Origin: Naegleria gruberi
Taxonomy: Eukaryota
NCBI GenBank assembly: GCA_000004985.1
Contig: GG738859.1
DNA length: 64,000 bases
Strand: one strand, 5' to 3'
Of the stretch, positions 3,001 through 22,367 are shown one piece after another. Position numbers and translations under genes: made by a program. Position 1 is the first letter of the stretch, and every line of letters starts with the position of its first letter. The notes under the pieces were generated by a model. It saw nothing but the letters and a program-made list of their open reading frames with translations. It did no database searches and was not told the DNA's origin.

Positions 3001-6000
3001 CTAAAAAAAGAGATGAAGAAACTAGTTTAAATTTTGAATCATTTTCTAAACAAGTTAAAAAAATAGAAAAGATTTCAGATATAGAAACTATATTTTTAAA
3101 AATTATTAAAGATGTTTCTAAACAACATACAGATTATTCAACATATTTAGATATGATATTTAATATATTTATAAATGGAGCAAGAGATTCTAAAAAAGAA
3201 GATGATATATTATTAGTATTTAATTCCTTTTATGAAAATGAATTTAAAGAATATGATATTGAAGAAGTTGTTAATTTTATTACTAGAAATCCAATGACTG
3301 GTCGTTTAGAAAAATTATTAAATTTAATTTCAGAATTTAATGAAGATTTCTTTAAAAAGGAAAAATCTAAATTTATCAAATCAGTTATTTTTAGATTATT
3401 TTCAACTTCAACAATATCAATTCAATTATTATCTTTAAAATGTTTACAAAAGTTTAATTTACCATATTTAACAAGTAAAACTGTTAAAAATTTACAAAAA
3501 GTAATTTCATCTAATAGAAGTGTTGAACATTTATCTAAATTAGATTTTATTAATATTCCAAAACAATATAAACAAGAATATATTCATTTACATTTAAAGG
3601 TTATTGAACCTTATTTATTAATGTTTGATATGACTAAAAAGAGAGGTAAAAATTCTAAAGATGCAATGATTAAAAAATGGAAAATTAGAGTTCATCAAGT
3701 TATTGAATTTTTAGGTCAATTACCAAAAGAAACACTTGAATATTTTATTAACATGTTATTTAATAGATTTAAATCTATTGATAATAATAATGGTAATGAT
3801 AGTAATATTGATAGTAATATTGAGAGTACAAATACTAATAATAGTGATGGTAAATTTGCTGAAGATTTAATCAAGGCAAATACATTCCAGTTACGTTGGT
3901 TATTAGATATTATTGAAGAAATTTTAACATGTTTAACTGGAAATTATCATTACTTTTATAATCAAGTATTGGATTTATTAATTACTATTATTGAATTGAG
4001 AGTTGATGCTCATGAAATGGAAGTTGATCAAGAAGAAGAAGAACAAAAATTACTTGAACAACAATTACTTGAACAAGAAGAAGAAGAAGAAGAAGATGAT
4101 GAACAAGATGAATCATCCACTATTAAAGATTCTGATAGTAAATCATCTGAAAAATCAGACAAGATGACTGATGAAGTTGATGATGAAGATGATGACCAAG
4201 ATGATGATGATGATGAATCTACTGCTACTTCTATTCAAACTACTTCTACTACTAAATCAACTATTGCTAAATCTACTACTTCTACCACAACTACAACAAC
4301 TGATAATAATACTAGCTACTACTGTTAATAAGAAACCAATTATTAGACAATATTATAAACCAGCATCATCTAAACAAAAAGTATCATTAACATTAACATT
4401 TAAAAGAGCAGTTGAATTACTTGAATTATTCTTTGATAGAAAACAAGAATTTGATTATAGTATTGAATTTACATCACACGTAATTTCATTATTTACAAAA
4501 TTCTTTGAAAATATTAATAAGAAATCATCAAGAATTGAAGAATTACCTTCTTACTTTTCAATTTTATTTTCATGGTTTGATAAACCTAAACTTTATTATT
4601 TAATTAAATATTATGAAAAGGAATTAATATTTAAATTTATTGAATTAATTGATCAATATAATGTTTCTAATGTTGTATTTGATCAAGTTTTATCTATTTT
4701 TGATAAAATATTATCAAATAAGGATGAAATTTTTATGAATTTAAATCCAAACTTTTCAAAAATTACAACAGATATTGAAAATGGTTTAACTATTGGTATG
4801 AAAATATTTGAACCTTCAATTATTAATCAAATTTTAATTGCATTTTATAATTTATTTATTGAATCTAATTATTCATCTAAATCTATTAATAATAATAATA
4901 ATAATAATAATTATAAATCTAAAAATAATAGTTATAATAATAATAATAATAATAATAATAATTTAAACAAATTAAATGATGAATTAAATGAACAATCAAA
5001 TGAAAAACAAGAATTTTCTAAAAAATGTTTTAAATTAATTGATAAAATGAAAGGTTATTTTGATGAAACATCACCTGCTGATATTATTTTAACCTTTTAT
5101 GGAACATCAATTAGAGATGGATCTTCTTTAAATGAAGATGAAGCACGTGTTTTATTACATTTATTTAAAAAATATTTACCATATTCAAGTGAATCTATTA
5201 AAACATTATATATTATACATTTTTCTAAAATGTTTATTTATAATAATGAAACTATATTTAGAAATCAAATTTGTGATATAATTGAAAAATTAGCAATTGG
5301 ATTTAATAATGAAAAATTAAAATTTACATCTAAAATTATTAATGGATTAAATGCACAAATTGAATCACATTTAACAAATTTAGATACATCATCTAGAATT
5401 GAAATATTTAAAGAATTAAATTCAAATTTAAATATAATTTCAAATTTAAATGAAATTGAATTATTTCCAATTATAGGTAATTTAATATTCTTTTTAGGAC
5501 ATAAAGAATGGATATTACGTGATTCATCTTCACAATCATTATTAAATATTATTGAAATTATTAAATTTAATAATGAAATGAAAGAAATTAAAAGATTATT
5601 AATTTTACATGTTAAAAGATTATCATTTTCAGATAAATTATTAGAAAAGAGTGAATCAATGTTAGTTTATTCTAAAATGATTGATCAATTTATTGAATTG
5701 GAAAATTTAAAACCATTTTCAAAATCATTAGAATTAATTTCAAATGTTAATTATCAAAAGAAATTAGAAGGTTTACAAATTATTAATTCTATTTTAATTC
5801 CAATTGAAAAATGTAAAATTCAACAAGATTATATTTATCAAATTGTACCTCCACTCATTTATGAATTAATGGTAATTAATGATAAATCTATTCAAGATTT
5901 AGTTAAACAATTATGTATTTATTTAGTAACTGTTTTAGATTGGAATTATTCACATCCAATTTTAAATCAATTAGTTACAATGATGGGTACATATGGTTTA

Positions 6001-9000
6001 AAGGTTTTATCAAAGAGAAAGAAATTAGCATTGGATATTATATGTCAAATTGTTGATGTATTTCCATTTGATAAAATTAATGATCATGGTTTTAATAGTA
6101 GTTATAGTTATAATAATAGAAATGATAATAATAGATATAATAATAGAAGACATGAATCAGAAGAACCATTATCAAATAGTACAGTTACTATTGAAAAGGA
6201 TACTACAAATGATGATGATGATAATGATGCAGACGACAATGAAATGATTGATGAAAATGAAATTCCAAAAGGTAGAAGAATGAAGAGATATTTCATGAAA
6301 GATTTCATTCCAAAAGTAACAAAATTCCTTTGGGATAAGAAATTAGAAATTTATGTCATGCGTATGCAAGTTTGTTTCTTAATTATTAAAGTATTAAGAA
6401 GATGTGATAAAACACAATTAGATGTACATTTATCTAAAATGGTATTAGATGTATTAGGTAAATTAAAGAGTAAAGATGAAGAACAACAACAAGTTGCTGG
6501 TAAAGCATTAATTGACATGTTTAAAGAATTGGGAAGTTCATATTGAAAGTAATGTCATCAGATCACAAAACTACTCACATTATTACACAAGCTGTACATT
6601 CAGTCATGTTAATTTTATTGAATGAAAATACATATCCACCTTTAAAAACATTTAAAAAGAGAAAAGTTTCACGTTTTGATATTGAAAAGGCACAAGATTA
6701 TGAAAATCAATCATCAATAGGTGAAAATTCAGTTTCATTAACTGCATCTGATAGTTCTTCATCAAAACATTTCAAATCAAAACATGAAAATACTTTATTT
6801 AATTGTTTTGAATTATTAGGTTCAATTATTGATATTAAGAAGAGTTTATCATATATTATTAATGATATTAATTTCAAAATTAGAATTGTACATAATGCTG
6901 AAATTTTAAAGAGATTTGAATTTGTATTTAAATTTTTATTGAAAGGTTTAATGAGAAATAGACAAGTTATTCAATCTAATCAATCTATTACTAATACTAT
7001 TACTAATAATACTACTACTAAACAATCTAATCAATCTAATAATAATAGTGAAATGTTATTAAATGTAATTAAAAATGAATTATATCATTATAGATTATAT
7101 AAAAAGAATTTTACAACAATAACAGATGGAGAACAAGATAGATTTCATTCTGTTAAAACTACTAAAGATAGAAAGGAAGAAAATTTCCTTGTACAAAAAG
7201 AACCAGGTAGACTTGGTGCAATTGATCAAGCTAATGATATGAAAATGAAATTATTAGCAGGATTAATTGATAATTCACATATTATTGTACAATTTTATTT
7301 AAAAATGTTTGAAAAATGTATTAAAAGATTTAAAATTCAAGTAGATAAACATTTAGAAATGATGAATGAAATAATACCATTATTATTAAAATATGTTAGT
7401 GGTAATCATTTAAATGTAGCATTGGTTTCATTTAGAATTTTAATTGAAATTTGTAAACGTACACCTAAAGTATTTAAAATATTAGAAGATTCTAAACAAT
7501 TATTATTAAATTCTACATTTGATATATTAACAAATTCAGGTATTGATTCTACAAATTTAGAAACATGGGAAACTATATATACAGGTATTAAATATTTTTT
7601 ACAATCTGATATTTCACATAAATATCCATTATCATTAGGACAATTAGATATTTTATTAGATATGTTAAAAATTGAAATTTCATCAACTAGAAAAACCTAT
7701 TCAATTCAAACATTTCAAATTTTATCAAATTTAATTGATAATAAGGTACAAATACCACAAATTTATGATTTAATGGATAAATCAATTACAATTATGTTAA
7801 CTACACTTGAAATGGAAATACAAAAAACTATAGTTGAAATGTTGGTTAATTTTTATTTAAATTATCCATTTACAAATGAAGTATTACAAGACAAGTTAAA
7901 TTATTTATTTAAAAATGTTTTAAATGAAAATATGTCAAATGAATCTAAATTATCAATTTTAAATTTAATTCAAACTATAATTAAAAAATTTCCAAATAAT
8001 TTCCTAAATGATAAAACTGAATTAATTTATTATCCTCTAATTTTAGAATTAGAAAAACAATGTAAAAAACGTGTTATTGCAGGTGATAACAAATCAATTT
8101 CATCAATTGTTTCAAAATTAAGAGAAACTTTACAATTTTTTATTAAAATATTAAATGATGAAAATTTAATTAAAATTATTAAAATTACAAATGATTGGAT
8201 TTTAAATGAAAAGAAATTAAAACCAATTGGAGTTAATTCTATTTTAATTTTATCAAATGTATCAAATGGTAGTAAATTAAAATCATCATCAGAATTTTAT
8301 GAAAATATGATACCTCAATTAATTTCTATAATTGAAAATTCAGATACAAATTTAGAAAAATATCCAAGTTTAGTATTAGAAACATTGGAATGTTTTTATT
8401 CATTATTTTCACAATCTATTATTTCATTCCAACATGTTGATGAAATTTGGAATTCCTTATTAAAAATAATTTGTGATGAAAATGATTTGAGAAGTGAAAT
8501 TAGATTAGAATCTTTGAAAATCTTTGAATTATTTGTTTCTAAAAAGAAGAAGAATGAATCTAAAATTTTAAATCATTTACAATATTTAGAACAAATGTCA
8601 ATTTCAATTATAGAATTATTTAAATCACAATATATTAATGATACAAATGTAATTGTAATTGTTAAAGTTTTAATTTATTTATTTAAATTATTAGATTCTA
8701 ATAATGGAAGTGAAATTTTACATAAATTATTTAAATCTTTACGTAAAATTTCAAATCAAACATTTGATTTTGACACCAATGAAAATATTACATTTAGAAG
8801 AATGAATATTTTAAAGTTATTTATAGGTTTAGCTTCTAAATATGGTAATCAATTACAACCTTATTTAATTTACATGACACCATTAATTTATAGATGTTGT
8901 GAATTTTCAAATAGAGATAAATCAATTGTAACAATTGAATTGGAGAAATTTGCTAAAGAATCTAAACAATTAATTCAACAATCATTAACAGATTCAAATT

Positions 9001-9242
9001 TATTTGTTCAAGCTTATGAAGAAGGTAGAAAATTAGTTGAAAGTAAAAGTGAAAAGAAATCAAAATCTAAAGAACAATCAATCATATCAAAACCATCACA
9101 ATATGCTAAAAAGAGATTGGAATCAAATTCTAAAAAGAATGATACTAAAAAGAGAAAGTTAAAAGAATCTTTTAATCAACCAACTGTACAAATATCATCA
9201 TCTGGTAATGTACAACAAGTTAAAAAGAAGAAGAAGAAGTAA
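92..9242 (+). CDS. UTP20: UTP20 (small-subunit processome component 20 / DRIM) homolog. Multi-exon gene: E1 92..424, E2 476..618, E3 696..2322, E4 2397..2851, E5 2956..9242.
   Basis: Strong matches to UTP20 N-terminal blocks: WDELNLT|KHYIQF (human WRELNLTEHFGKF), DSLAYQPILDLV (NSFAYQPLLDLV), KDISLWFEKYSKILSHKKWYIRKFAAESFSFLINKLSD (KDMSSIYSMYSTLLAHKKLHIRNFAAESFTFLMRKVSD). Lys-rich C-terminus. Introns with GTATGT/GTAAGT/GTAGGT donors at 425..475, 619..695, 2323..2396, 2852..2955 restore frame. Three further frame breaks (about 1328-1359, 4290-4325, 6525-6543) are not explained by canonical introns. Confidence 0.8.
4886..4966 (+). repeat. (AAT)n coding microsatellite (poly-Asn tract) inside UTP20. 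Representative of many such tracts in this window.
   Basis: Perfect aat repeats read directly in the sequence. They translate to NNNNNNNN in the gene frame. Confidence 0.7.
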
Positions 9243-11719: not shown

Positions 11720-14700
11720 TTATTCAGATTCTAATTGATTTGAAAGTTCTAATGCTTCTGATTGAGTTTGAATTAAATCTGATGGAACATCAACACATAA
11801 AATCTTAATTAAATATGGAATAGATTCAAAATTATATCCAACTTCTTGATAACTCTTAAAGTGTTGTAAAATCTCTACCAATTTAATACATTTACCAAAG
11901 TTAATAAATATAGTACCATTTGATTGTCTAAAGGTAGGTTCAATATCACATTCTTTCAATTCATCTAAATAGGAATTTACCAATGGAATGATTGGTAATT
12001 TAATTGAATTTAATCGATTAATTAAATTCTCTCTTGCTTGTGGATTTTTATCTGAAAAGTAAGTTTCATGATATAAACGATAAATCTTTTTAGATTCCTT
12101 TGACCAACTCTTATTTAATCTCAAAATGGCATGATTACTCAATCCACAATATATTGAATATAATCCAAATAAATTATTCATGGCAAATAATTCTTCACAT
12201 ATTTGATTAAATTTGTTAATAATTTCAATTCTCTTATTTAAATCTCTTTCACGTAAAATTAAAGTCACAACCCACAATTCACAATCTCTCTTTCTCTCTA
12301 ATAGTGAAGAGAGATGTGGTAAATAATCTTTTTGTTTGGTGGATGCACAAATTTCCTTATTATCAATTTGTTTAAAGAATTCAAAATCTATTAAAGTTAA
12401 TTGTCTTGCAATTTCAGTTGAATTCCATGCAAGTAAATCAAATGAAGGAACAAATGAAGTTAGTAAATTCAATTTCAATTTGGAAAATCCATTTGGAATG
12501 ATTGGATTTGGTTTCTTTTTAGAATCTTCATTGGATTGTTCTTTAATTCCCAATAAACAATTAATGAGTGATGATTTAACTTGTTCTAACAAGTAAAAAC
12601 ATTCAAATGCAACTTGTTTAATAACAAGTGTCAAATCATTATCTAAAAATTGAATTAAATTACAAATGAATGGTTGTGTCATATCTGTGAAATGTTTTTC
12701 AATCCACAACTTGATTGAAAGTGTAATATTTAACACCATTTCACTCTTATGTTCAATTTCAGGATCTTGAGCAAATTTAAATAAAATCTGACGAATCATG
12801 AGCAATAATTGATGTGGTGTTGTAAAGAATAAATAACTTGAAAAGAATATCTCTGCATAGGTTAATTTAAAATCCAAATTATTGTTGTTAGCAACATTTG
12901 CACCACCACTACCATTTGAAATATTTGATTGTAAATTACTATTACTTGATTGAGTATTGTTATTAATTGGAGATGATACTTGATTATTAGATGATGATAG
13001 CAGTAAACTATTTGTATAAATATTTGGATTGATAAATAATTTTTCAACAAGATTTTCCAATTTTGAAAAATTCATCTTTTCCAACTCCTCAACTGATAAA
13101 TGTGGAGTATCTCTATTAACATGTAAAGTACCACCCAATTTTAATAGATATTCCTTATGTGATTGTTGTTTTTGTATTAAATCTTCAATTGAATCAACTT
13201 GTTCATGTTGATAAATTTCAATCAAATCGTACAAGACATCACGAACACTTGAAAAAGTTTCAGTCAAAGTTGGGAAATAACAATAGGATAATACACTTGC
13301 TAATATTGATTTCCATTTAGGATTTCTATCTGAAAGTAATTGTGTTAAATGTGTTTTATCAAATGTTAAATGTGACATTCCAATTTTAGCTGTTAATTGT
13401 GTTGGAATGTTAAATTGTTTTGTTGTTGTTGTTGATAGTTTAATATTACTTTCATTAGAATTATTAACATCACTATTATTACCACCATTATTATTATTAG
13501 TATTATTACTATTGTTATTATTATTACTATTAATATTAATATCATTTAATTTAATATGTTCATTAATAAATATAAAAGGTTTAAAAGTTTCTAAAAATGG
13601 TTCTAAATAAGATTGAAATAAAACTCTCTTATGTTCTGAATCCAAATAAGGAGATAATAAAACAACAGATAAAAGGAAATGTAAAGACTTGTCAAAAATT
13701 TCATAAAAAACTAAAGTTTGTGAATCATTTTCATAAATTGAAATTGTCAATTCATCAATTAATTGTTTCATTTCCATTGAACATGTTTCATCACTGAAAC
13801 CTCCTTGACCTTGACCTCCTAATAAATGATTAATTAGTAAATCTTTAAATTTAGATAAAAGTTGATTTGTTTTTTCACTAAATATTTCACTTTTAGGTTT
13901 TAAATATAAATTTACAATAATCTTGTTAAATAATTCCATATAAACTTCATGAAAACAAATTTGTACTTGATTTTGATTATGAATATTCATTAACATGACA
14001 GTTACTTGTAAAATGTCAACTAATGAAAGAATTTTTTCAGATTCAAGTGAAGAGAAATATTCAACAATCTTTTCATCACTTGAATTCTTTAAAATGTGAT
14101 AAAAACATGCAAATAAATCTCCCAATTCATCTTTAAATGTAATACAATCAGAAATTGAATCTTTTTGTTCAATTACTTTTTTAACAAAATCAAAATATAA
14201 ATTTCCAATAAAATTTCGATCTTTTTGTGATTGAATTCTAGAATCAAAATCTAATTTTGTTAAATGATTCTTTAAAATTCTCAATGATAAACCTTTCAAT
14301 TCATCAGTTTTTTGTGTTAAACCATAAATAATACAATCAATTAATTTGGAAATTATAAATTGATTCTCAGAATTTTGAATAATAAAGAAAATATCATCAT
14401 GTTCAATAAATAATTCAAGAAATTGTAAAATATAGAAAATTGCAACATCTCTTGTCTTGTCATTTGATAACTTGTCTTGGAAATAACTAAAATATTCAAT
14501 CATTATTTCTCTAATATATTTAAAATCAAGAATTGGAACTAAATCTCTCAAAAATAATGAAAAATCCAAATTAAAATTGGTAGCAGCTGCATAAATAGCT
14601 GCATCTTTAAATCTCTTCTCATAACACTCCAATAGGAGAGGTGCAATGGTGTGAATTAATTGTTTCAATCGACTCATGAAAATGTTTGGATCAAATTGTT

Positions 14701-17700
14701 GAGAGGAAACCTTTTTAAATTCCTCATCTCTCACAATGTGAATATTCTTTGTAATCAAATCAAAGAAGAACCAACCAAATTTGATTACATCAACTCCAGT
14801 AAAGGAAATTTCAGAGACTTTTCTAGGATTTGCCTCAGCAATAATCTTTTGAGTATTGAAATCGTCAATGACAATTTGTTTTTGTTTGCTACTGCTGCCA
14901 CCACCACTGCTGCTGCCAGTTGAAGAAGTGTTGGATACTTTTCTCCTCTCACGTGTGATAAAATCCTTAAATTCCTTCACTTGACCCTCTGCTTGTTTTC
15001 CATTGGGTCTAGTTTCCATCGAGGTGAATAAAAAGGTAGAAATTTGTTTGTGTGAATCAATATTCTTTGCCAAACCATTTTGTGGTTTAAAATTGAGATC
15101 AGAAACCTTTGGTGAAAAGACTCCCAACTCTATGATTGGTTTCTTTCTATCTTTTTGTCTTGATTCTTGCCAATTTTGAATGAAATTTAACATTTCATCC
15201 ATTAACATTTTGTATAATGGTTCTTCCATATCTGGATATTGTCTTGAAAAGTAAGAAATAAAAGTTGAAATGTAATAATTATTTCTACCAAATGAAGAAG
15301 AAACAGTTTCAATTCCACTTAAAAAGAATAACAAACATGACATGGCACGTGAAATAATTTCAGGTACAATAACCTTAGTTCTAGTTCCATATTGATTAAA
15401 ATTCTTAATTATAACCAATGTTGATAATAAAGTTAAAAGACCATTAATTACTTTTGGAGTGTGATTCAATAATTCTGCAAAATTAGCATCTCTTAAATTA
15501 TCTAACTTTGACATGACATCTAATAATATTTCCTCTCTATTAACATCTTCATTCTTTTTAGTAGATTCAAATGTATTGTAAAATCTATCACATGCATCAA
15601 GGAATGAAGCAGCAAATGGATCTTGAGTATAAAAAGAAGTTAACGCTTTTGTTTTGATATTTAAATAAGATGAATGTGACATTGGAATATCTGTTTGTAA
15701 ACTTAAATAATTATCAACTAATTTTGGTGATTTAAATATTGTTAAAGTATGATAACCATCTTTTACAATACAATGATTAGTAACATCTCTTAAATATGCA
15801 AAACCAATTAATTGAGTATTTGTAATACCATCAGATGAAATATCCATATCACTATTTTGTGGAGCTTTTCCATCTAAACCTTTTGAAATATCCAAATCAA
15901 AAAATTCAAATAAAACATGTGACTTGTCAACAATATTGGCAGATGATGGAATTTCCAATCTAATTTCGTCATAAAATTGAGGTGAAATTTTCTTAAATGT
16001 GATTGAAGAATAAAAATAGTTAAATCTATTAGAATCATTAAATGAATCTGCCATTCTAGATTCTCTTGTTGAAGTGATCATATCATTCTTCTTATATGAA
16101 ACTTTAATATAAATATTACCAGTTTTAGAAAGTGAAGATAATTCACATGTATCTAAATAAATATATAAAGTATTTCTTAAATTAAAATCAAATTGATAAT
16201 AATCTTTAGAGTTATGAAGTGATTCAACAACTGGAAATAATTTGTAAAATGTATCGAGAACAGAGAATGATCCCTTCGATTTGTCCAATCTTTTCATAAC
16301 AGTTTCAATGACATGATCATCCTGATCTGTTTTAAACATGGAAAAATCATTCTTGAATCGCATACTGGTATGAGATTGTTGAGAGGAAGCTTTGGATTTT
16401 CGAGTGGAGAAGGCATGTAAATAGGATGCTAATTTATCTCTCGTAGCTGTATTAGTTTGAAATAGGAAACGAATTGGGAGATTATTCTTATCATCATCCA
16501 TATTAAATGTTGTTGAAAAATCACTGCCACCACTACCTTGAATAGGTAAATTAGTTGAACCATTACTTGATAACCATTTTAAGAATGTTAATACATCAAA
16601 TGAACTTGAAGAATGTGATGGTATTCTATAGGCCTTGTTAATTTTAACTTGACCTTCTAATATTTCAATGGAAGAATTATCATTTTCATCTCGATTTTCA
16701 TAGAAAATCTTTTGACCCATTACAATGAATGGTTGTCTCAACATACTCGCTCTCCAATAATCATTCATTTGTGTGAGATATTTCTTCATTAACTTTTCAT
16801 TATTGGATTTATAGGCTTTCCATGCATCTTCTATTAAACCTCCACAAAATACCTTTTCAATGGTGAATGAAATGTAAACTTCTGTATGTTCTGGTTTTTC
16901 AAATACAAATAAAGCAGATGCCTTTTCAAAATTTTGTCTCTTGTTAATATTCTTAATATGTCTCTGTGTGGAATTTGCCAATTTGTTCATTGAAAATCCA
17001 TCACTACTTGATAGAGAATGTTTAGGTTCAATAAAGAAACAAAAATCTTCTGTCAATTTAACTTCAGATTTGATATCATAGAGTGAAACTTTACAAAATA
17101 AAGGTTCAGGTAAACCAAATTTTGAAAGTACAAAATCTTCATATTCAAATATTAAATACATCATCTTATCAATATTATTATAGAGTGGTTGAACTTTTCT
17201 AGTTCTGTGACATCTTTCAATTTCCTGTCCACCATTCCAAATAAAATCATTATTATAATAGGAAATTACTCTATATGGATTTTCTAATTCATATTGTGTA
17301 ATGACATTTTCTTTAAATTTAAATCCTTCAATTCTTTTTAAATCTTTAGGTCTAATTCCTTTAGCTTTAAGTTTTGTAAAAACTGATTCATTCTTCTTCT
17401 TCTTTCCGTAGAGTTGTTCATGAAGTTGTGAAACTGATTCACCTGAAATGATATCCATTTTACTCTTCTCAATATCGTGATGATGATGATTTGAGAAATT
17501 ACCAGCACTCATACTAACAGTTTGTTGTCCTGTAGTACCAATAGTATTATTATTATTATTTGAATAACTTGTTGATTCATCGAGTGAATTGGTTGAGCTT
17601 TCAAATTCCTTCTTTGGTTTTCTTCTAATAAAATCAAAGAATGAAGCTCTATTAACTTGTTTTTGCTTATTCAATTCAGAAATATGACCAATACTTCTAA

Positions 17701-19726
17701 CACGTGAACCTTTTGATTGATTTGAATGTGATTGATCGAAGGAATCTTCATCAGTTGGTGGATGATTTCTAGGACTTGCAAAATCACCACCTGTATTTGT
17801 ACTTGCTGTATTATTATTTAATGGATTATCTTCATCTTCATCATCACTGTCAATTCTACCAAATACACTTCCTCTTCTCGTATGACCTAAATCTTCAAAG
17901 GAAGCAATTGTACTTCTTTCTGGATGTGGTTGAGTGAATGATTGTGAACTCATTTCAGCTGTCATTCTCTTACTTGAGATTGGACTTAAATTACTTGAAC
18001 TTGATGTCATTTGATTTCTACTATTAGCAGGTGAATTATATGGATTTGATGAAAATGATGATCTAACAGCTCTATCCAATAGAGTTTGATGACGATAAGA
18101 TCCTTGTAATTGAATCACTGTTGATTTACCCATATCTTCATACATTGAACGTGTATTTGGTGAAAATGCAAAATGATCATTAATATTATTAATATTATCA
18201 CCTAATACCATTATACTCGATGAATCATCTTCACTATTACTATTAATATCTTCTTCATCGTCATGAGTAGTAGTACCATTCAATTGTGGAGAGTGTTGTT
18301 GTGAATGCGATTGGTGTGAAGTGATTAATTCTTGTTTTGATAATTTTTCAGCAAATAAATCTCTAGGTTGTGTAAAATTAATTGGTTGACTAGTATAACG
18401 TGGCATACCAATTGAACTATTATATTCAGAATTATTTAAATTAATAGCTTGATCTGAAAGTGAAAATTTGTTATAACTAGCACTTAGATTAGAATTAAAA
18501 CTACCTTGTGAAACATTTTTCTTACTCAATTGAGTATTAAAATGTTCATTTGATAAATCTGATTGTGAATTTGGTGCAACTTTAAGTAAATTTTGATTTT
18601 GTTTTCTATTCGAAAGTGTTGCTGTCTTTTCCAATTCTTCAATTTCATCATCATCTTCAATATCTTCACTATATGTTAATTCATTAGAACTTAACACATT
18701 TAAATTATTTGCAGTTGTTGATGGTGATGTTAAATGTTGTTGTTGCGTAGTTATTGAACCACCAACACCAACACCACTAGCATTAGTAGCAATGTTATTA
18801 TTACTATGATTATTATTACCAATGGTTATAGTTGGTTGTTGTTGAGGTTGTAATTGACCCATAGCTAATCTATTTGGATTACCAATCATTAATAAATGTC
18901 TTTCCAATTCATTTTCATAAAGAGATGATGATGATTGTTGTTGATATTGATTATTAATTTGTTTACAATACAAATAAGGTGGTGCAACTTGTTTATAATT
19001 AGATAAATGATCCATTGTTAAAACCATCCAATCTCCTAGAATCATATTAACAGTTTCTTGATCAATTGATTTAAATCTATTTGGTTGTTCTTCCAATCTT
19101 TCTAAGAATGGTCTTAAATCTGAATGATAACGTTCATTAATTGGTAATTCATTACAATCTTTAACAAGATGAAATGGATTGCTTATTACTTGTTCTTCTT
19201 TTTCTTCTTCATCATTATTAGTAATGGTAGTAGTAGTAGTATTAGTGGTTGTAATATCATTATTATTTATATTATTAGTAGAAGTAATTTCCTCTTCTTC
19301 TTGTTGTTGAAGTTCAATTGATGTACCTTCTATTTGACTAGTTGTTGTTGTTATAGTATTATTGTTATCAATATTTGATTGTTGTTGTTGTTGAAGACTC
19401 GACGATTCTAAATTATTATTAATTTGTACATTATTTGATGATGAGGATGATGATGTTTGACTAGTTGATACAATATTAGCAGTACTATTATTACTATCAA
19501 TATCAATATTATTATTATTGTTATTGGAAGTGGTAGTGGATGGAAGAGAAGAACTAATAGTAGTACTGTTGTTGTTATTTAAATTACATAAAGATTGTTC
19601 CTCAGCAGCAGTATGTTGATGCAAAGGCTGTTGTTGTTCTTCTTGTTGTGGATTGTTTCGAATAATTATTTCCTCCTCAACATTTTGATGATGGTTTAAT
19701 GATGGTGGAGGTGATGATGATGACAT
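11720..19726 (-). CDS. Large 2668-aa single-exon protein: N-terminal low-complexity region, DOCK-type DHR-1 (C2-like) domain at about 15.7-16.2 kb, REM (RasGEF_N) at about 12.7-12.95 kb, CDC25-type RasGEF catalytic domain at the C-terminus (about 11.72-12.43 kb)
   Basis: RasGEF: NSTEIARQLTLIDFEFFKQI, NKFNQICEELFAMNNLFGLYSIYCGLSNHAILRLNKSW, PIIPLVNSYLDEL...FINFGK. REM: LTYAEIFFSSYLFFTTPHQLLLMIRQILFKF...IKLWIEKHF. DHR-1: RNTLYIYLDTCEL...NIYIKVSY...FNYFYSSITFKKISPQFYDEIRLEIPSS...SHVLFEFFDL...IGFAYLRDV...VKDGYHTLTIFK, which parallels DOCK2 RNDIYITLLQGDF...NVEVIMCV...[27 protein letters not shown]...IHLRFMFRH...FAMSYVKLM. Confidence 0.75.
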   Translation of the reverse strand: MSSSSPPPSLNHHQNVEEEIIIRNNPQQEEQQQPLHQHTAAEEQSLCNLNNNNSTTISSSLPSTTTSNNNNNNIDIDSNNSTANIVSTSQTSSSSSSNNVQINNNLESSSLQQQQQSNIDNNNTITTTTSQIEGTSIELQQQEEEEITSTNNINNNDITTTNTTTTTITNNDEEEKEEQVISNPFHLVKDCNELPINERYHSDLRPFLERLEEQPNRFKSIDQETVNMILGDWMVLTMDHLSNYKQVAPPYLYCKQINNQYQQQSSSSLYENELERHLLMIGNPNRLAMGQLQPQQQPTITIGNNNHSNNNIATNASGVGVGGSITTQQQHLTSPSTTANNLNVLSSNELTYSEDIEDDDEIEELEKTATLSNRKQNQNLLKVAPNSQSDLSNEHFNTQLSKKNVSQGSFNSNLSASYNKFSLSDQAINLNNSEYNSSIGMPRYTSQPINFTQPRDLFAEKLSKQELITSHQSHSQQHSPQLNGTTTHDDEEDINSNSEDDSSSIMVLGDNINNINDHFAFSPNTRSMYEDMGKSTVIQLQGSYRHQTLLDRAVRSSFSSNPYNSPANSRNQMTSSSSNLSPISSKRMTAEMSSQSFTQPHPERSTIASFEDLGHTRRGSVFGRIDSDDEDEDNPLNNNTASTNTGGDFASPRNHPPTDEDSFDQSHSNQSKGSRVRSIGHISELNKQKQVNRASFFDFIRRKPKKEFESSTNSLDESTSYSNNNNNTIGTTGQQTVSMSAGNFSNHHHHDIEKSKMDIISGESVSQLHEQLYGKKKKNESVFTKLKAKGIRPKDLKRIEGFKFKENVITQYELENPYRVISYYNNDFIWNGGQEIERCHRTRKVQPLYNNIDKMMYLIFEYEDFVLSKFGLPEPLFCKVSLYDIKSEVKLTEDFCFFIEPKHSLSSSDGFSMNKLANSTQRHIKNINKRQNFEKASALFVFEKPEHTEVYISFTIEKVFCGGLIEDAWKAYKSNNEKLMKKYLTQMNDYWRASMLRQPFIVMGQKIFYENRDENDNSSIEILEGQVKINKAYRIPSHSSSSFDVLTFLKWLSSNGSTNLPIQGSGGSDFSTTFNMDDDKNNLPIRFLFQTNTATRDKLASYLHAFSTRKSKASSQQSHTSMRFKNDFSMFKTDQDDHVIETVMKRLDKSKGSFSVLDTFYKLFPVVESLHNSKDYYQFDFNLRNTLYIYLDTCELSSLSKTGNIYIKVSYKKNDMITSTRESRMADSFNDSNRFNYFYSSITFKKISPQFYDEIRLEIPSSANIVDKSHVLFEFFDLDISKGLDGKAPQNSDMDISSDGITNTQLIGFAYLRDVTNHCIVKDGYHTLTIFKSPKLVDNYLSLQTDIPMSHSSYLNIKTKALTSFYTQDPFAASFLDACDRFYNTFESTKKNEDVNREEILLDVMSKLDNLRDANFAELLNHTPKVINGLLTLLSTLVIIKNFNQYGTRTKVIVPEIISRAMSCLLFFLSGIETVSSSFGRNNYYISTFISYFSRQYPDMEEPLYKMLMDEMLNFIQNWQESRQKDRKKPIIELGVFSPKVSDLNFKPQNGLAKNIDSHKQISTFLFTSMETRPNGKQAEGQVKEFKDFITRERRKVSNTSSTGSSSGGGSSSKQKQIVIDDFNTQKIIAEANPRKVSEISFTGVDVIKFGWFFFDLITKNIHIVRDEEFKKVSSQQFDPNIFMSRLKQLIHTIAPLLLECYEKRFKDAAIYAAATNFNLDFSLFLRDLVPILDFKYIREIMIEYFSYFQDKLSNDKTRDVAIFYILQFLELFIEHDDIFFIIQNSENQFIISKLIDCIIYGLTQKTDELKGLSLRILKNHLTKLDFDSRIQSQKDRNFIGNLYFDFVKKVIEQKDSISDCITFKDELGDLFACFYHILKNSSDEKIVEYFSSLESEKILSLVDILQVTVMLMNIHNQNQVQICFHEVYMELFNKIIVNLYLKPKSEIFSEKTNQLLSKFKDLLINHLLGGQGQGGFSDETCSMEMKQLIDELTISIYENDSQTLVFYEIFDKSLHFLLSVVLLSPYLDSEHKRVLFQSYLEPFLETFKPFIFINEHIKLNDININSNNNNNSNNTNNNNGGNNSDVNNSNESNIKLSTTTTKQFNIPTQLTAKIGMSHLTFDKTHLTQLLSDRNPKWKSILASVLSYCYFPTLTETFSSVRDVLYDLIEIYQHEQVDSIEDLIQKQQSHKEYLLKLGGTLHVNRDTPHLSVEELEKMNFSKLENLVEKLFINPNIYTNSLLLSSSNNQVSSPINNNTQSSNSNLQSNISNGSGGANVANNNNLDFKLTYAEIFFSSYLFFTTPHQLLLMIRQILFKFAQDPEIEHKSEMVLNITLSIKLWIEKHFTDMTQPFICNLIQFLDNDLTLVIKQVAFECFYLLEQVKSSLINCLLGIKEQSNEDSKKKPNPIIPNGFSKLKLNLLTSFVPSFDLLAWNSTEIARQLTLIDFEFFKQIDNKEICASTKQKDYLPHLSSLLERKRDCELWVVTLILRERDLNKRIEIINKFNQICEELFAMNNLFGLYSIYCGLSNHAILRLNKSWSKESKKIYRLYHETYFSDKNPQARENLINRLNSIKLPIIPLVNSYLDELKECDIEPTFRQSNGTIFINFGKCIKLVEILQHFKSYQEVGYNFESIPYLIKILCVDVPSDLIQTQSEALELSNQLESE

Positions 19727-20390: not shown

Positions 20391-22367
20391 ATGAGCAAGA
20401 CAACAACAAGAACATCTTCGGAAAGTAAATTAGCCTTTACATCATCGGAGGCTATTAAAAAGATGGCTGATGGTATCATTTCGGATAAGAAGAATACAAA
20501 TAATTTGGTTAAATTAACAGAGTTTTTAGAAGAATTATTTCCTTTATCTTCTCAAAAACATCGTAAACTTGCTCTTCAAACAATTTCATCACTTGTGGAT
20601 GTTTTTAGTCACTTTTTTGAGGAAGGAACTCTTATATTAACAGTAACAGAATCAAAAAATCAAAAAGATGCTGTCGCTTGTGATGTTAGTAAAGAAAAAT
20701 CGATACAAAAAAAGGAATATATGAAATGGATTTATGAACAATATGTTTCATTCACAAAATATTTACCACTTTATGCTGTTCACTATTTTACTAAATTTAA
20801 TGAAAATTATGAAGAAATTGAAACTGTTATTAAGGCTATTTTGGATCTTTCTAAAAAGGAATTAACTTCTGCTAGTGGATCAACACTTGTTGAAATGGAA
20901 AGAGAAAGAAATAGAATTAACACTATTATAAATGAAGGTCCATTCGGTTCTTTTATTTATCATTTGATATATGACCCAAATAACAGTGAAGGAAAAGAAT
21001 TTGTTATCACTTGTCTTAAAGAATATATTTTCAAATTCCATGATTTGAGATTTTTTGCTTACATTTCATTGACAAATGCTATCAGAAAGATTCGTTCAAA
21101 GAAGAAGAGAATGCTTACATATCCACAACTTTATGATAATGTTTTGCAAATTATTGATGGTATTCCAATAATTGATGTTATTGGTAGATTTTATTTATAT
21201 GATGGTTATGATTATGATAGTGATGAAGTAAATAGTGATGAAGAAGATGGAATGGATGAAGATGGTCCAAATGAAGATGGTATTCCAGATGATTTTATGA
21301 TGGATCCTGAATTGGGTGATTTGAGTTCATTGACTTTACCAAGTTCTCAAAAGAAATCAACAGAAGAAAAGAAGGAAAGCGAAGAAAAGGATGAAGAAAT
21401 GAAGGACGAAGATAAGGAAAATAATTTACTTGATCCAGATGTTCACATTAATGCCTATACAAACTTTTGGCTTGCCTTCTTACAAATACCAGAAATGACT
21501 AGATCTGTTTATGAAAAAGTTTTGAGAAAGATGAGCACAGAAATTATTCCACAATTTGAAGATCCATTCTTGTTGAATGATTTCATTTCTAATTCTTTTG
21601 ATCAGGGAGGATTGGTTGCACTTCTCTCAGTTAAGAGTTTATTCATTTTGATTACCGAGTATAATTTGTAAGTTTGAAGAGTTTTTAATACTAATTAATG
21701 TAGAGTTTATGACCAATTTTATAACAAGATTTACGCTATCATTGAACCATCTCTTTTCACTATGGATGATAGACATGAATTTTTCGAGTTGCTTGATACA
21801 TTTATGAAATCTACCCATTTACCTGAATATTTGGTGGCTGCCTTTGTGAAAAAGCTTGCTAGAATTTCATTATTCGCACCTGCTTATGCCTGTAATTATA
21901 TTCTTGCTGTTATTTATAATCTTGTTTCTAGACATCCACAAATTAGTTTCTTGGTTCAAAAAGGAGAAATTGAACCAAAGTATCTTTCAAGAATTCAAAA
22001 GAAATATTTAATGGAAAAGAATTCAGAAATTTATCTGAAAGATAACCGAAAGATTGTAGATCCTTTTGATCCAAATGAAAAAGATCCAAAAGAATGTAAA
22101 GCAATGCAAAGTCAACTTTGGGAAATTGAGACTTTACTTTATCACTCGAATGGAGAAGTTGCTAAATTTGCTAGAGATATTAAGAGACATTTCCTTGAAG
22201 GTTTCCCTCTTTTTGATATTAAGAAATATACAACCATCACAACAGAAACCATGTTTGCAACAATATCAGAAAAGAAAAAGTTTGTAAAGCTTTCAGGTGT
22301 TGAACCTCCAAAATCATTATTTGGAAGACAAGCTGATCATAACGTGTTTGGTCTATTTGATTTATAA
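20391..22367 (+). CDS. NOC4: NOC4 (nucleolar complex protein 4, CBF/Mak21 family). Exons 20391..21667 and 21704..22367.
   Basis: Matches human NOC4L: ...SLFILITEYN-L-VYDQFYNKIYAIIEPS (SLFVLITQHNLEYPDFYRKLYGLLDPS), HLPEYLVAAFVKKLARISL (HLPAYLVAAFAKRLARLAL), LVSRHP, DPFDPNEKDPKECKAMQSQLWEIETLLYHSNGEVAK (DPYDPGEEDPAQSRALESSLWELQALQRHYHPEVSK). The 36-nt intron (GTAAGT...GTAG) is needed to splice across the codon tt|a. Confidence 0.85.

What the first reader, a model, noticed from the sequence alone, without database searches (positions are those of the whole stretch)
11720..19726. DOCK DHR-1 domain fused to a RasGEF (REM+CDC25) module in one 2668-aa single-exon protein
The C-terminal 300 aa are an unambiguous Ras guanine-nucleotide exchange module. 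About 1100 aa upstream is a region whose blocks line up with the DOCK-family DHR-1 (C2-like, PIP3-binding) domain: RNTLYIYLD..NIYIKVSY..FYSSITFKKISPQFYDEIRLEIPSS..SHVLFEFFDL. DOCK proteins normally pair DHR-1 with a C-terminal DHR-2 Rho-GEF domain. Here I could not recognise a DHR-2, and a RasGEF sits in its place. That suggests DHR-1-mediated membrane/PIP3 targeting coupled to Ras rather than Rac/Cdc42 activation. I do not recall this architecture being described.
Basis: partly seen in the sequence, partly recalled or inferred. Interest (0 to 1): 0.6.

Follow-up and report, generated by a model that had tools for sequence, protein, structure and literature searches.

The report
DOCK scaffold carrying a RasGEF module
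This Naegleria gruberi gene encodes one large protein with the membrane-binding front two-thirds of a DOCK-type Rho activator, but with the DOCK catalytic domain replaced by a Ras-type exchange module; the design is conserved in related protists and I found no paper describing it.

Summary
Window 11720-19726 (-) is one 2668-aa ORF, identical to Naegleria gruberi XP_002679050.1 / UniProt D2V9U1. The organism is a heterolobosean, not a dictyostelid.

Domain evidence:
- DOCK-C2/DHR-1: aa 1182-1370, Pfam E=4e-28.
- CDC25 RasGEF domain: aa 2438-2613, E=2e-29.
- REM: weak in this protein.
- DHR-2: none. A custom DHR-2 HMM scores -0.2 bits here, against at least 528 bits for controls.

Profile-profile alignment and an AlphaFold model matched by Foldseek show a DOCK-C/D-like body: an N-terminal beta-sandwich, DHR-1 and the ARM/TPR solenoid. 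Confident homology stops near aa 1920. After that come a family-specific linker and REM-CDC25.

Of 153 relatives examined, 25 carry RasGEF, 93 carry DHR-2 and none carries both. All named fusion proteins are from Discoba: Naegleria (three paralogs in N. gruberi), Willaertia, Acrasis, Percolomonas and Andalucia.

Two caveats apply. The DOCK8 and DOCK1 phosphoinositide-binding basic residues are not kept, so PIP3 targeting is unsupported. The CDC25 helical hairpin is atypical in this paralog.

Most likely function: a membrane-associated Ras/Rap-family GEF built on a DOCK scaffold. This is a new variant of known kinds. It is present in databases, but I found no paper on it.

The parts
11720..19726 (-). 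Complete single-exon CDS, 2668 aa plus stop. It is N. gruberi XP_002679050.1 / D2V9U1.
   Evidence: The ORF list and translation show it. The product is identical to P0007.
17327..19726 (-). N-terminal ~800 aa. Mostly low-complexity, rich in N, S, T and Q, and presumably disordered.
   Evidence: The entropy scan shows low complexity. Identity to the N. lovaniensis orthologue is only 25-47%.
18968..19189 (-). Conserved 74-aa N-terminal motif (aa 180-253) of unknown role.
   Evidence: It is 76% identical to the N. lovaniensis orthologue. jackhmmer finds it only in P0007, P0008 and P0001. It has no Pfam hit.
16445..17167 (-). N-terminal beta-sandwich (aa ~854-1094), homologous to the region upstream of DHR-1 in DOCK-C/D proteins.
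   Evidence: The A1 profile matches DOCK6 residues 281-401. hhalign gives confident columns from aa 800-1080 to DOCK8-like residues 211-493. AF2 predicts strands. Identity to the orthologue is 72%.
15617..16183 (-). DHR-1 / DOCK-type C2 domain (aa 1182-1370).
   Evidence: Pfam PF14429 gives E=4.4e-28, 98.9 bits. The A1 profile matches the DOCK8 DHR-1 structure 7clx at E=6e-18. Foldseek matches 3l4c with TMt 0.71 and 7clx with TMt 0.67.
13967..15616 (-). ARM/TPR solenoid homologous to the DOCK-C/D helical region (aa 1371-1920). It contains a disordered loop at aa ~1526-1640.
   Evidence: The A1 profile matches DOCK6 residues 933-1063. hhalign is confident up to aa ~1920. Relatives carry precomputed PF28208 TPR_DOCK9. 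The AF2 model matches DOCK5 8xm7_B with E=1.3e-19 and TMq 0.46.
12875..13966 (-). Family-specific helical and low-complexity linker (aa 1921-2284) with no detectable homology to DHR-2.
   Evidence: hhalign confidence collapses after aa ~1920. There is no Pfam hit. The AF2 model is low-confidence and all-helical or disordered, with no beta lobe.
12527..12874 (-). REM (RasGEF_N) domain, aa ~2285-2400.
   Evidence: Pfam PF00618 gives 19.6 bits, below the gathering score of 28.3. The same columns pass in relatives: 48, 42 and 82 bits. Identity to the orthologue is 75%.
11723..12454 (-). CDC25-homology RasGEF catalytic domain (aa ~2425-2668) with an atypical helical hairpin.
   Evidence: Pfam PF00617 gives E=1.6e-29. 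phmmer matches SOS1 at E=1.8e-16. The hairpin divergence is shared with the N. lovaniensis orthologue. Identity to the orthologue is 60%.

Best explanation
The gene encodes a chimeric exchange factor.

**Shown**
- It has the non-catalytic body of a DOCK-C/D (zizimin-type) protein: an N-terminal beta-sandwich, the DHR-1 C2 domain and the ARM/TPR solenoid.
- The Rho-directed DHR-2 catalytic domain has been replaced by a REM-CDC25 module of the Ras-GEF superfamily.
- The architecture is conserved in Discoba.
- All folded modules are under purifying constraint.

**Inferred**
- The DOCK body does what it does in DOCK proteins. It holds and orients the C-terminal catalytic module at a membrane and provides regulation.
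- The CDC25 domain catalyses GDP/GTP exchange on a lipid-anchored Ras/Rap-family GTPase rather than on Rac/Cdc42.
- The long disordered N-terminus, with its conserved 74-aa motif, probably supplies partner binding or autoregulation.

**Not supported for this paralog**
- Lipid specificity is unknown. The PIP3 and PI(4,5)P2 recognition modes of DOCK1 and DOCK8 are not supported here.
For: **Domain calls**
- DOCK-C2 E=4.4e-28.
- RasGEF E=1.6e-29.

**DOCK body**
- The family profile matches DOCK6 (9vm2) at E=3.9e-35 in three collinear stretches.
- hhalign of 25 family members against 40 DOCK-C/D proteins gives probability 100 and E=1e-89. Confident columns cover aa ~800-1080, 1160-1520 and 1640-1920.
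- The AF2 model of aa 800-1950 has pLDDT 67.5 and pTM 0.63. Its best PDB match is DOCK5 (E=1.3e-19, TMq 0.46), followed by the DOCK180 and DOCK8 DHR-1 crystal structures.

**Absence of DHR-2**
- No Pfam hit.
- A custom HMM built from 83 DHR-2 domains, run with filters off, scores -0.2 bits for the window protein. Controls score at least 528 bits.
- Among 153 relatives, 25 carry RasGEF only, 93 carry DHR-2 only and none carries both.

**Conservation of the architecture**
- Pfam confirms it in the N. gruberi paralog D2VK39 and in Andalucia godoyi.
- Named members come from three Naegleria species, Willaertia, Acrasis, Percolomonas and Andalucia.
- A Percolomonas member is a complete transcriptome ORF, so both modules sit on one mRNA there.

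**Constraint, N. gruberi versus N. lovaniensis**
- DHR-1 73%, REM 75%, CDC25 60%, against 25-47% in low-complexity parts.

**Catalytic signature**
- The family consensus keeps the canonical CDC25 hairpin 'GxYLTDLTFIEDGN...LINFxKRR'.

**Biological context**
- Naegleria is reported to have class I PI3K and both Dock and Zizimin genes (PMC9928731, PMC3620097).
Against: - No biochemical or expression data exist for this protein.
- In this paralog and its N. lovaniensis orthologue the CDC25 hairpin is atypical: 'IPLVNSYLDELK---ECDIEP...INFGKC'. It has a 3-residue deletion and has lost KRR. Exchange activity or specificity may therefore be altered.
- REM is below the Pfam threshold.
- The DHR-1 L1 loop lacks the basic residues used by DOCK8 and has net charge -1. 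Membrane binding through DHR-1 is an analogy, not a demonstrated property.
- The AF2 model of the C-terminal third is too poor to use (pLDDT 50.5).
Confidence: 0.6

Rival explanations
1. Pseudo-GEF or scaffold. In this particular paralog the CDC25 domain has lost catalytic competence. The protein would then act as a DOCK-like membrane scaffold or as a Ras-binding adaptor rather than as an exchange factor.
For: - The helical hairpin, the element that opens the nucleotide site in SOS, deviates from the family consensus. It has a 3-aa deletion, G->N, T->D and KRR->GKC.
- CDC25 is the least conserved folded module between the two Naegleria orthologues, at 60%.
- RasGEF_N is below the Pfam threshold.
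Against: - The divergent hairpin is itself conserved between N. gruberi and N. lovaniensis.
- The domain still scores E=1.6e-29 over the full Pfam model.
- In the HMMER alignment to SOS1, the L938 position is kept and E942 aligns with Asp.
- 60% identity is well above the 25-47% of the unconstrained regions.
Confidence: 0.2
2. Cryptic DHR-2. The protein is still a Rho-family GEF because a highly diverged DHR-2 hides between the ARM region and REM.
For: About 365 residues (aa 1921-2284) have no assigned homology. DHR-2 lobe A is helical, as this region is predicted to be.
Against: - The custom DHR-2 HMM scores -0.2 bits here, against at least 528 bits for controls.
- There is no Pfam hit at E<=10.
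- None of the 25 family members has DHR-2.
- The region is interrupted by two low-complexity tracts.
- It is predicted without the beta-sheet lobe B.
- It is shorter than a full DHR-2, which spans ~440-490 aa in P0006 and P0029.
Confidence: 0.03
3. Annotation or assembly artefact. Two neighbouring genes, a DOCK fragment and a RasGEF, are read as one.
For: No transcript data for N. gruberi were available here. In one metagenomic contig the two parts were called as separate ORFs (L004).
Against: - The reading frame is uninterrupted for 8 kb in ~28% GC DNA.
- Collinear full-length orthologues and paralogs occur in at least 7 named species.
- One of them is a complete transcriptome ORF from Percolomonas.
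- The linker between the parts is itself 52-58% conserved between Naegleria species.
Confidence: 0.02

Closest known systems
DOCK-C (DOCK6/7/8, 'zizimin-related') and DOCK-D (DOCK9-11, zizimin) Rho-family GEFs
   Same: The two share a collinear N-terminal beta-sandwich, a DHR-1 C2 domain and an ARM/TPR_DOCK9 solenoid. hhalign gives E=1e-89. The A1 profile matches DOCK6 at E=3.9e-35. The predicted structure matches DOCK5 and the DOCK8 and DOCK180 DHR-1 structures.
   Different: There is no DHR-2, and therefore no DOCK-type Rac/Cdc42 catalytic or dimerisation module. There is no PH domain, and no significant DOCK_C-D_N hit. The DOCK8 PI(4,5)P2-binding residues are not conserved in this paralog. 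The C-terminus is REM-CDC25 instead.
CDC25-family Ras/Rap GEFs (SOS1/2, RasGRF1, yeast Cdc25, RalGPS, Epac)
   Same: The C-terminus is a REM plus CDC25-homology catalytic module. The best solved relative is SOS1 at E=1.8e-16. The family consensus has the canonical hairpin motif.
   Different: The targeting and regulatory region is a DOCK body. It is not DH-PH, cNMP, EF-hand/C1 or SH3. The hairpin is atypical in the window paralog.
Multidomain proteins that join Ras and Rho regulation: SOS and RasGRF (DH-PH + REM-CDC25), and Dictyostelium GefC (DH + RasGEF) and GefD/GflB/GflD (RhoGAP + RasGEF)
   Same: In all of these, parts of Rho-regulator and Ras-regulator families sit in one polypeptide (PMC1273635, PMC4865317, supplement of PMC8923023).
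   Different: Those proteins keep an active Rho-directed catalytic domain next to the RasGEF. Here only the non-catalytic DOCK scaffold is kept and the Rho-GEF domain is gone. No DOCK-derived example was found in that literature.

Membership tests
DOCK (CZH) family | DHR-1 / C2 DOCK-type domain | tested here: met
   PF14429 scores 98.9 bits, E=4.4e-28, over profile positions 3-186 of 187. Foldseek matches DOCK180 DHR-1 (3l4c) with TMt 0.71 and DOCK8 DHR-1 (7clx) with TMt 0.67.
DOCK (CZH) family | DHR-2 (DOCKER/CZH2) catalytic domain, lobes A-C | tested here: not met
   There is no PF06920, PF20421 or PF20422 hit at E<=10. An 83-domain DHR-2 HMM with filters off scores -0.2 bits, against at least 528 bits in controls. 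hhalign confidence is lost about 280 residues before the DHR-2 start. None of the 25 family members has DHR-2.
DOCK (CZH) family | DOCK-C/D-type region upstream of DHR-1 and the ARM/TPR solenoid downstream | tested here: met
   The match to DOCK6 has three collinear stretches. hhalign gives confident blocks. Relatives carry PF28208 TPR_DOCK9. The AF2 model matches DOCK5 8xm7_B at E=1.3e-19 over ~1184 columns.
DOCK (CZH) family | DOCK_C-D_N (PF11878) N-terminal domain | tested here: inconclusive
   There is no Pfam hit. Two mutually exclusive weak hhalign placements exist: aa 521-545 (mean confidence 5.9) and aa 223-255 (probability 0.25).
DOCK (CZH) family | Basic L1-loop residues that bind phosphoinositide (DOCK8 R570/K576/R581; DOCK1 basic L1/L3 residues) | tested here: not met
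   The aligned residues are T, S and G. The L1 loop 'YLDTCELSSLSKTGN' has one K and two acidic residues (residues from PMC7893821). About half of the other family members keep K/R at the R581 position.
DOCK (CZH) family | GEF activity on Rac/Cdc42 | not testable with these tools
   This needs biochemistry. It is unlikely given the absence of DHR-2.
CDC25-type RasGEF family | CDC25-homology catalytic domain (PF00617) | tested here: met
   E=1.6e-29, 103.5 bits, profile positions 1-180 of 181. SOS1 matches at E=1.8e-16.
CDC25-type RasGEF family | REM / RasGEF_N domain upstream of CDC25 | tested here: inconclusive
   It scores 19.6 bits, below the gathering score of 28.3, in this protein. The homologous columns pass in P0001 (48 bits), D2VK39 (42 bits) and Andalucia (82 bits). 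The 'FFxxYxxFTTPxxLL' motif is present.
CDC25-type RasGEF family | Canonical helical-hairpin motif (GxYLTDLxFIEEGN ... INFxKRR) | tested here: not met
   The window protein reads 'VNSYLDELK---ECDIEP ... INFGKC', and N. lovaniensis shares this. The family consensus is canonical. The L938 equivalent is kept and E942 aligns with D in the HMMER alignment.
CDC25-type RasGEF family | Nucleotide exchange on a Ras/Rap/Ral-family GTPase | not testable with these tools
   This needs an exchange assay with Naegleria GTPases.

The most novel reading that the evidence does not exclude
The DOCK body (beta-sandwich, DHR-1, ARM solenoid) is a membrane and regulatory platform that does not depend on which catalytic domain it carries. 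An ancestor within Discoba, the only clade with named members, swapped the Rho-directed DHR-2 cassette for a Ras-directed REM-CDC25 cassette. This created a distinct, multi-paralog GEF family that routes DOCK-type upstream inputs to Ras/Rap instead of Rac/Cdc42. If so, these proteins are a natural experiment. They would separate what the DOCK scaffold does from what DHR-2 does.
Probability: 0.35. Interest if true: 0.65.

Novelty: new variant of a known kind. Interest (0 to 1): 0.5.

Why it matters
DOCK proteins and CDC25-type RasGEFs are two unrelated exchange-factor superfamilies. They are normally treated as dedicated to Rho and Ras GTPases respectively.

A conserved protist family keeps the whole DOCK targeting and regulatory scaffold but carries a Ras-type catalytic module. 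This shows that the scaffold and the catalytic cassette can be exchanged in evolution.

The family offers three things:
- A way to ask what the DHR-1/ARM body contributes independently of DHR-2.
- A candidate link between membrane cues and Ras signalling in Naegleria. That genus includes the pathogen N. fowleri, which has orthologues.
- A warning for annotation. The DOCK domain is missed when the full-length, low-complexity-rich protein is scanned.

Tried and rejected
- **Dictyostelid origin.** I checked the Dictyostelium RasGEF literature (Wilkins 2005 PMC1273635; Forbes 2021 PMC8923023 and its supplement; GflB PMC4865317; RasGEFX PMC11696275; ErkB phosphoproteome PMC6397043).
  - GflB (1601 aa) has RhoGAP+RasGEF. 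GflD has RasGEF+RhoGAP+GRAM. Neither is this protein.
  - The exact-sequence look-up then showed the window is Naegleria gruberi.
- **Full-length Pfam scan.** It missed DOCK-C2. Segment scans were needed.
- **Homologue searches.** The first word-indexed search found only one relative. The third, with the 25-sequence profile, returned mostly insect DOCK9 and added little.
- **Tree with all hits.** An NJ tree of 134 sequences including fragments gave no bootstrap support for a fusion clan. An earlier run used an invalid distance correction. I redid it with complete proteins only.
- **AF2 of aa 1900-2668.** The model was too poor (pLDDT 50.5) to justify a fold search.
- **afdb50 Foldseek.** It was unavailable.
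- **N-terminal motif.** Linking the 74-aa motif to DOCK_C-D_N failed.
- **Unread paper.** van Dam et al. 2011 (PMC3116619), the most likely place for a prior mention of RasGEF architectures, is not held. It could not be checked.
- **Timeout.** A MAFFT --auto run timed out.
- **Irrelevant scan.** The bacterial promoter/terminator scan does not apply to a eukaryote.
Full report
**1. The observation**

Window 11720..19726 on the minus strand is one uninterrupted ORF of 2668 codons with an ATG start. It lies in DNA of about 26-30% GC.

A Pfam scan of the whole protein reports only two families:
- RasGEF at aa 2438-2613, E=1.6e-29.
- A sub-threshold RasGEF_N at aa 2287-2354, 19.6 bits against a gathering score of 28.3.

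DOCK-C2 is not listed in that scan. Scanned as a 281-aa segment (aa 1120-1400), the same library gives DOCK-C2 PF14429 at 98.9 bits, E=4.4e-28. The match covers profile positions 3-186 of 187, which is aa 1182-1370. No DHR-2 family appears at E<=10 in aa 1380-2060 or aa 2100-2299.

The obvious check, run on the full-length protein, would have wrongly refuted it. Composition filtering of a protein whose first 800 residues are low-complexity is the probable cause.

**2. Identity of the locus**

The ORF product is identical to a protein in the public collection. That protein is XP_002679050.1 / EFC46306.1 / UniProt D2V9U1, 'rasGEF domain-containing protein' of Naegleria gruberi NEG-M.

The window is therefore from a heterolobosean amoeboflagellate, not a dictyostelid. 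The annotated gene model is the same single exon.

The neighbouring genes are ordinary eukaryotic housekeeping genes: UTP20, a DUF789 protein, CBF/Mak21, a TPR protein and NCA2.

**3. How much of the protein is DOCK-like**

The homology extends well beyond DHR-1.

- phmmer of aa 790-2060 against PDB sequences hits DOCK6 (9vm2) in three collinear stretches, and also hits the DOCK8 DHR-1 crystal construct.
- A four-sequence family profile raises the DOCK6 match to E=3.9e-35. It matches DOCK6 residues 281-401, 548-739 (DHR-1) and 933-1063.
- hhalign of 25 family members against 40 DOCK-C/D proteins gives probability 100 and E=1e-89.
- Per-column confidence is high for window aa ~800-1080, 1160-1520 and 1640-1920. 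It then falls to noise. That point is about 280 residues before the start of DHR-2 lobe A in the template, a carp DOCK8.
- Relatives carry the precomputed Pfam family PF28208, named TPR_DOCK9.

An AlphaFold2 model of aa 800-1950 has pLDDT 67.5 and pTM 0.63. It shows two beta-sandwiches followed by a helical solenoid. Foldseek against the PDB gives these best matches:
- DOCK5, 8xm7_B: E=1.3e-19, TMq 0.46 over about 1184 columns.
- DOCK180 DHR-1, 3l4c: TMt 0.71.
- DOCK8 DHR-1, 7clx: TMt 0.67.

**4. DHR-2 is absent**

- I built an HMM from 83 DHR-2 domains of the retrieved DOCKs and ran it with all filters off. The window protein scores -0.2 bits. The best of the 25 family members scores 1.9 bits. 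The 40 control DOCKs all score at least 528 bits.
- The unassigned stretch, aa 1921-2284, is broken by two low-complexity tracts.
- In a low-confidence AF2 model (pLDDT 50.5) that stretch is helical or disordered, with no beta-sheet lobe. I did not fold-search that model.

**5. The C-terminal module**

The CDC25 domain aligns best with SOS1 (E=1.8e-16), followed by RalGPS1, SOS2, yeast Cdc25, RasGRF1 and Epac2. This order gives no specificity call.

REM is weak in this protein. The homologous columns pass the Pfam threshold in relatives.

The family consensus has the canonical hairpin 'PxIPxxGxYLTDLTFIEDGN...LINFxKRR'. The window protein and its N. lovaniensis orthologue share a divergent version, 'IPLVNSYLDELK---ECDIEP...INFGKC'. 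In the HMMER alignment to SOS1, L938 is retained and E942 aligns with Asp. The roles of these two SOS residues are from my own knowledge of the SOS-Ras structure.

Catalysis is therefore plausible for this paralog but not assured.

**6. Relatives and distribution**

A profile search of 1.84 billion cluster representatives found 763 proteins at E<=0.001. The top-ranked ones are full-length collinear relatives, followed by ordinary DOCKs.

| C-terminal module | Number |
|---|---|
| CDC25 domain only | 25 |
| DHR-2 only | 93 |
| Both | 0 |
| Neither (mostly fragments) | 35 |

At least one 'fragment' is a split gene call. Its DOCK-C2 ORF is followed on the same strand by a RasGEF_N+RasGEF ORF.

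Pfam confirms DOCK-C2 + RasGEF_N + RasGEF in the N. gruberi paralog D2VK39 and in Andalucia godoyi.

Named members:
- N. gruberi, three paralogs: D2V9U1, D2VK39 and D2VVW0.
- N. lovaniensis and N. fowleri, several of them auto-named 'C2 DOCK-type domain-containing protein'.
- Willaertia magna.
- Acrasis kona.
- Percolomonas sp., as a complete transcriptome ORF.
- The jakobid Andalucia godoyi.

All named members are Discoba. The rest are unnamed environmental or SRA-assembly proteins. Only the best 150 hits were listed, so a wider distribution is not excluded.

Neighbour-joining trees on 443 shared columns, using complete proteins only, place all fusion proteins in one clan. Bootstrap support is 90/100 with 36 well-covered sequences but only 8/100 with 88 sequences. 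A single origin is consistent with these trees but not established.

**7. Constraint**

Against the N. lovaniensis orthologue, overall identity is 51.6% over aa 381-2668. Identity by module is as follows:

| Module | Identity |
|---|---|
| N-terminal motif (aa 180-253) | 76% |
| REM | 75% |
| DHR-1 | 73% |
| N-terminal beta-sandwich | 72% |
| ARM | 60-64% |
| CDC25 | 60% |
| Low-complexity regions | 25-47% |

All folded modules, including the exchange module, are under purifying constraint.

**8. Lipid targeting**

The closest DHR-1 domains are of the DOCK-C type. For DOCK8, R570, K576 and R581 bind PI(4,5)P2, and DOCK8 prefers PI(4,5)P2 over PIP3 (PMC7893821).

In the alignment these positions are T, S and G in the window protein. 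Its L1 loop has one Lys and two acidic residues. About half of the other family members keep K/R at the R581 position.

Naegleria is reported to have class I PI3K (PMC9928731). Even so, PIP3-specific recruitment of this protein is not supported by sequence. General membrane association remains an inference from DOCK biology.

**9. Mechanism proposed**

*Shown:* a DOCK-C/D-type scaffold carries REM-CDC25 in place of DHR-2. The architecture is conserved and the modules are constrained.

*Inferred:*
- The scaffold places and regulates the C-terminal catalytic module at a membrane.
- The module activates a Ras/Rap-family GTPase.
- The disordered N-terminus, with its conserved 74-aa motif, mediates partner binding or autoregulation.

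*Rivals:*
- A catalytically impaired pseudo-GEF in this paralog (about 0.2).
- A cryptic DHR-2 (about 0.03).
- A merged-gene artefact (about 0.02).

**10. Comparison with known systems and novelty**

The protein fails DOCK membership on the defining DHR-2, so it should not be filed as a DOCK GEF. It meets the CDC25 criterion for the RasGEF superfamily.

Known proteins that join Ras and Rho regulators keep a Rho-directed catalytic domain. Examples are SOS and RasGRF with DH-PH, and Dictyostelium GefC, GefD, GflB and GflD (PMC1273635, PMC4865317, PMC8923023). Here only the non-catalytic DOCK body remains.

Full-text searches combining DOCK-C2, DHR-1 or CZH1 with RasGEF or CDC25, and Naegleria with RasGEF, DOCK or ELMO, found no description. 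A review notes only that Naegleria has both Dock and Zizimin genes (PMC3620097). van Dam et al. 2011 could not be read.

The proteins are in public databases with automatic domain labels, so this is not a newly discovered sequence.

I rate it a new variant of known kinds. It is real, conserved and apparently undescribed. It is of moderate interest (0.5) to specialists in small-GTPase signalling and protist cell motility.

Noticed in passing
window 18968-19189 (-), aa 180-253 of the ORF: A 74-aa motif inside the otherwise low-complexity N-terminus is 76% identical to the N. lovaniensis orthologue. jackhmmer finds it only in the closest subclade (P0007, P0008, P0001). It has no Pfam hit. It shows a non-significant resemblance to the 'dW.vv.rkY' part of DOCK_C-D_N.
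   Followed up: partly
window 11720-19726 (-), whole protein: hmmscan of the full-length protein does not report DOCK-C2, although the isolated segment scores 98.9 bits. This probably explains why NCBI and UniProt name D2V9U1 only 'rasGEF domain-containing protein', while orthologues are labelled 'C2 DOCK-type'.
   Followed up: partly
window 11723-12100 (-), CDC25 helical hairpin, aa ~2575-2615: The hairpin has a 3-residue deletion and has lost the KRR motif relative to the family consensus. The same variant occurs in N. lovaniensis, so it is a conserved subclade feature rather than decay.
   Followed up: partly
L004:34-5543 (+): In a JGI contig, the DOCK-C2 protein P0025 (923 aa) is followed on the same strand by a 168-aa ORF and a 637-aa RasGEF_N+RasGEF ORF. 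This looks like a fusion-family gene split by the gene caller, so 'DOCK-only fragments' in the hit list are probably fusion genes too.
   Followed up: no
P0127 (2136 aa, JGI): A DHR-2-bearing DOCK falls inside the fusion clan in the 134-sequence NJ tree. It may be the nearest canonical DOCK relative, or a long-branch artefact.
   Followed up: no
window 2988-9242 (+): A UTP20 homologue is spread over three adjacent or overlapping ORFs in an unusually AT-rich stretch (15-24% GC). This is presumably due to introns or frame changes.
   Followed up: no
window 20391-22367 (+): Two ORFs lie about 90 bp apart, and the second matches the C-terminal part of CBF/Mak21. They are probably one gene with a short intron, transcribed divergently from the DOCK-RasGEF gene.
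   Followed up: no
L001:6001-10680 (+) and flanks: The relative P0004 lies on a very gene-dense, apparently intron-poor contig from SRA run SRR22387979. The organism is unidentified. The organisms carrying the unnamed family members were not determined.
   Followed up: no
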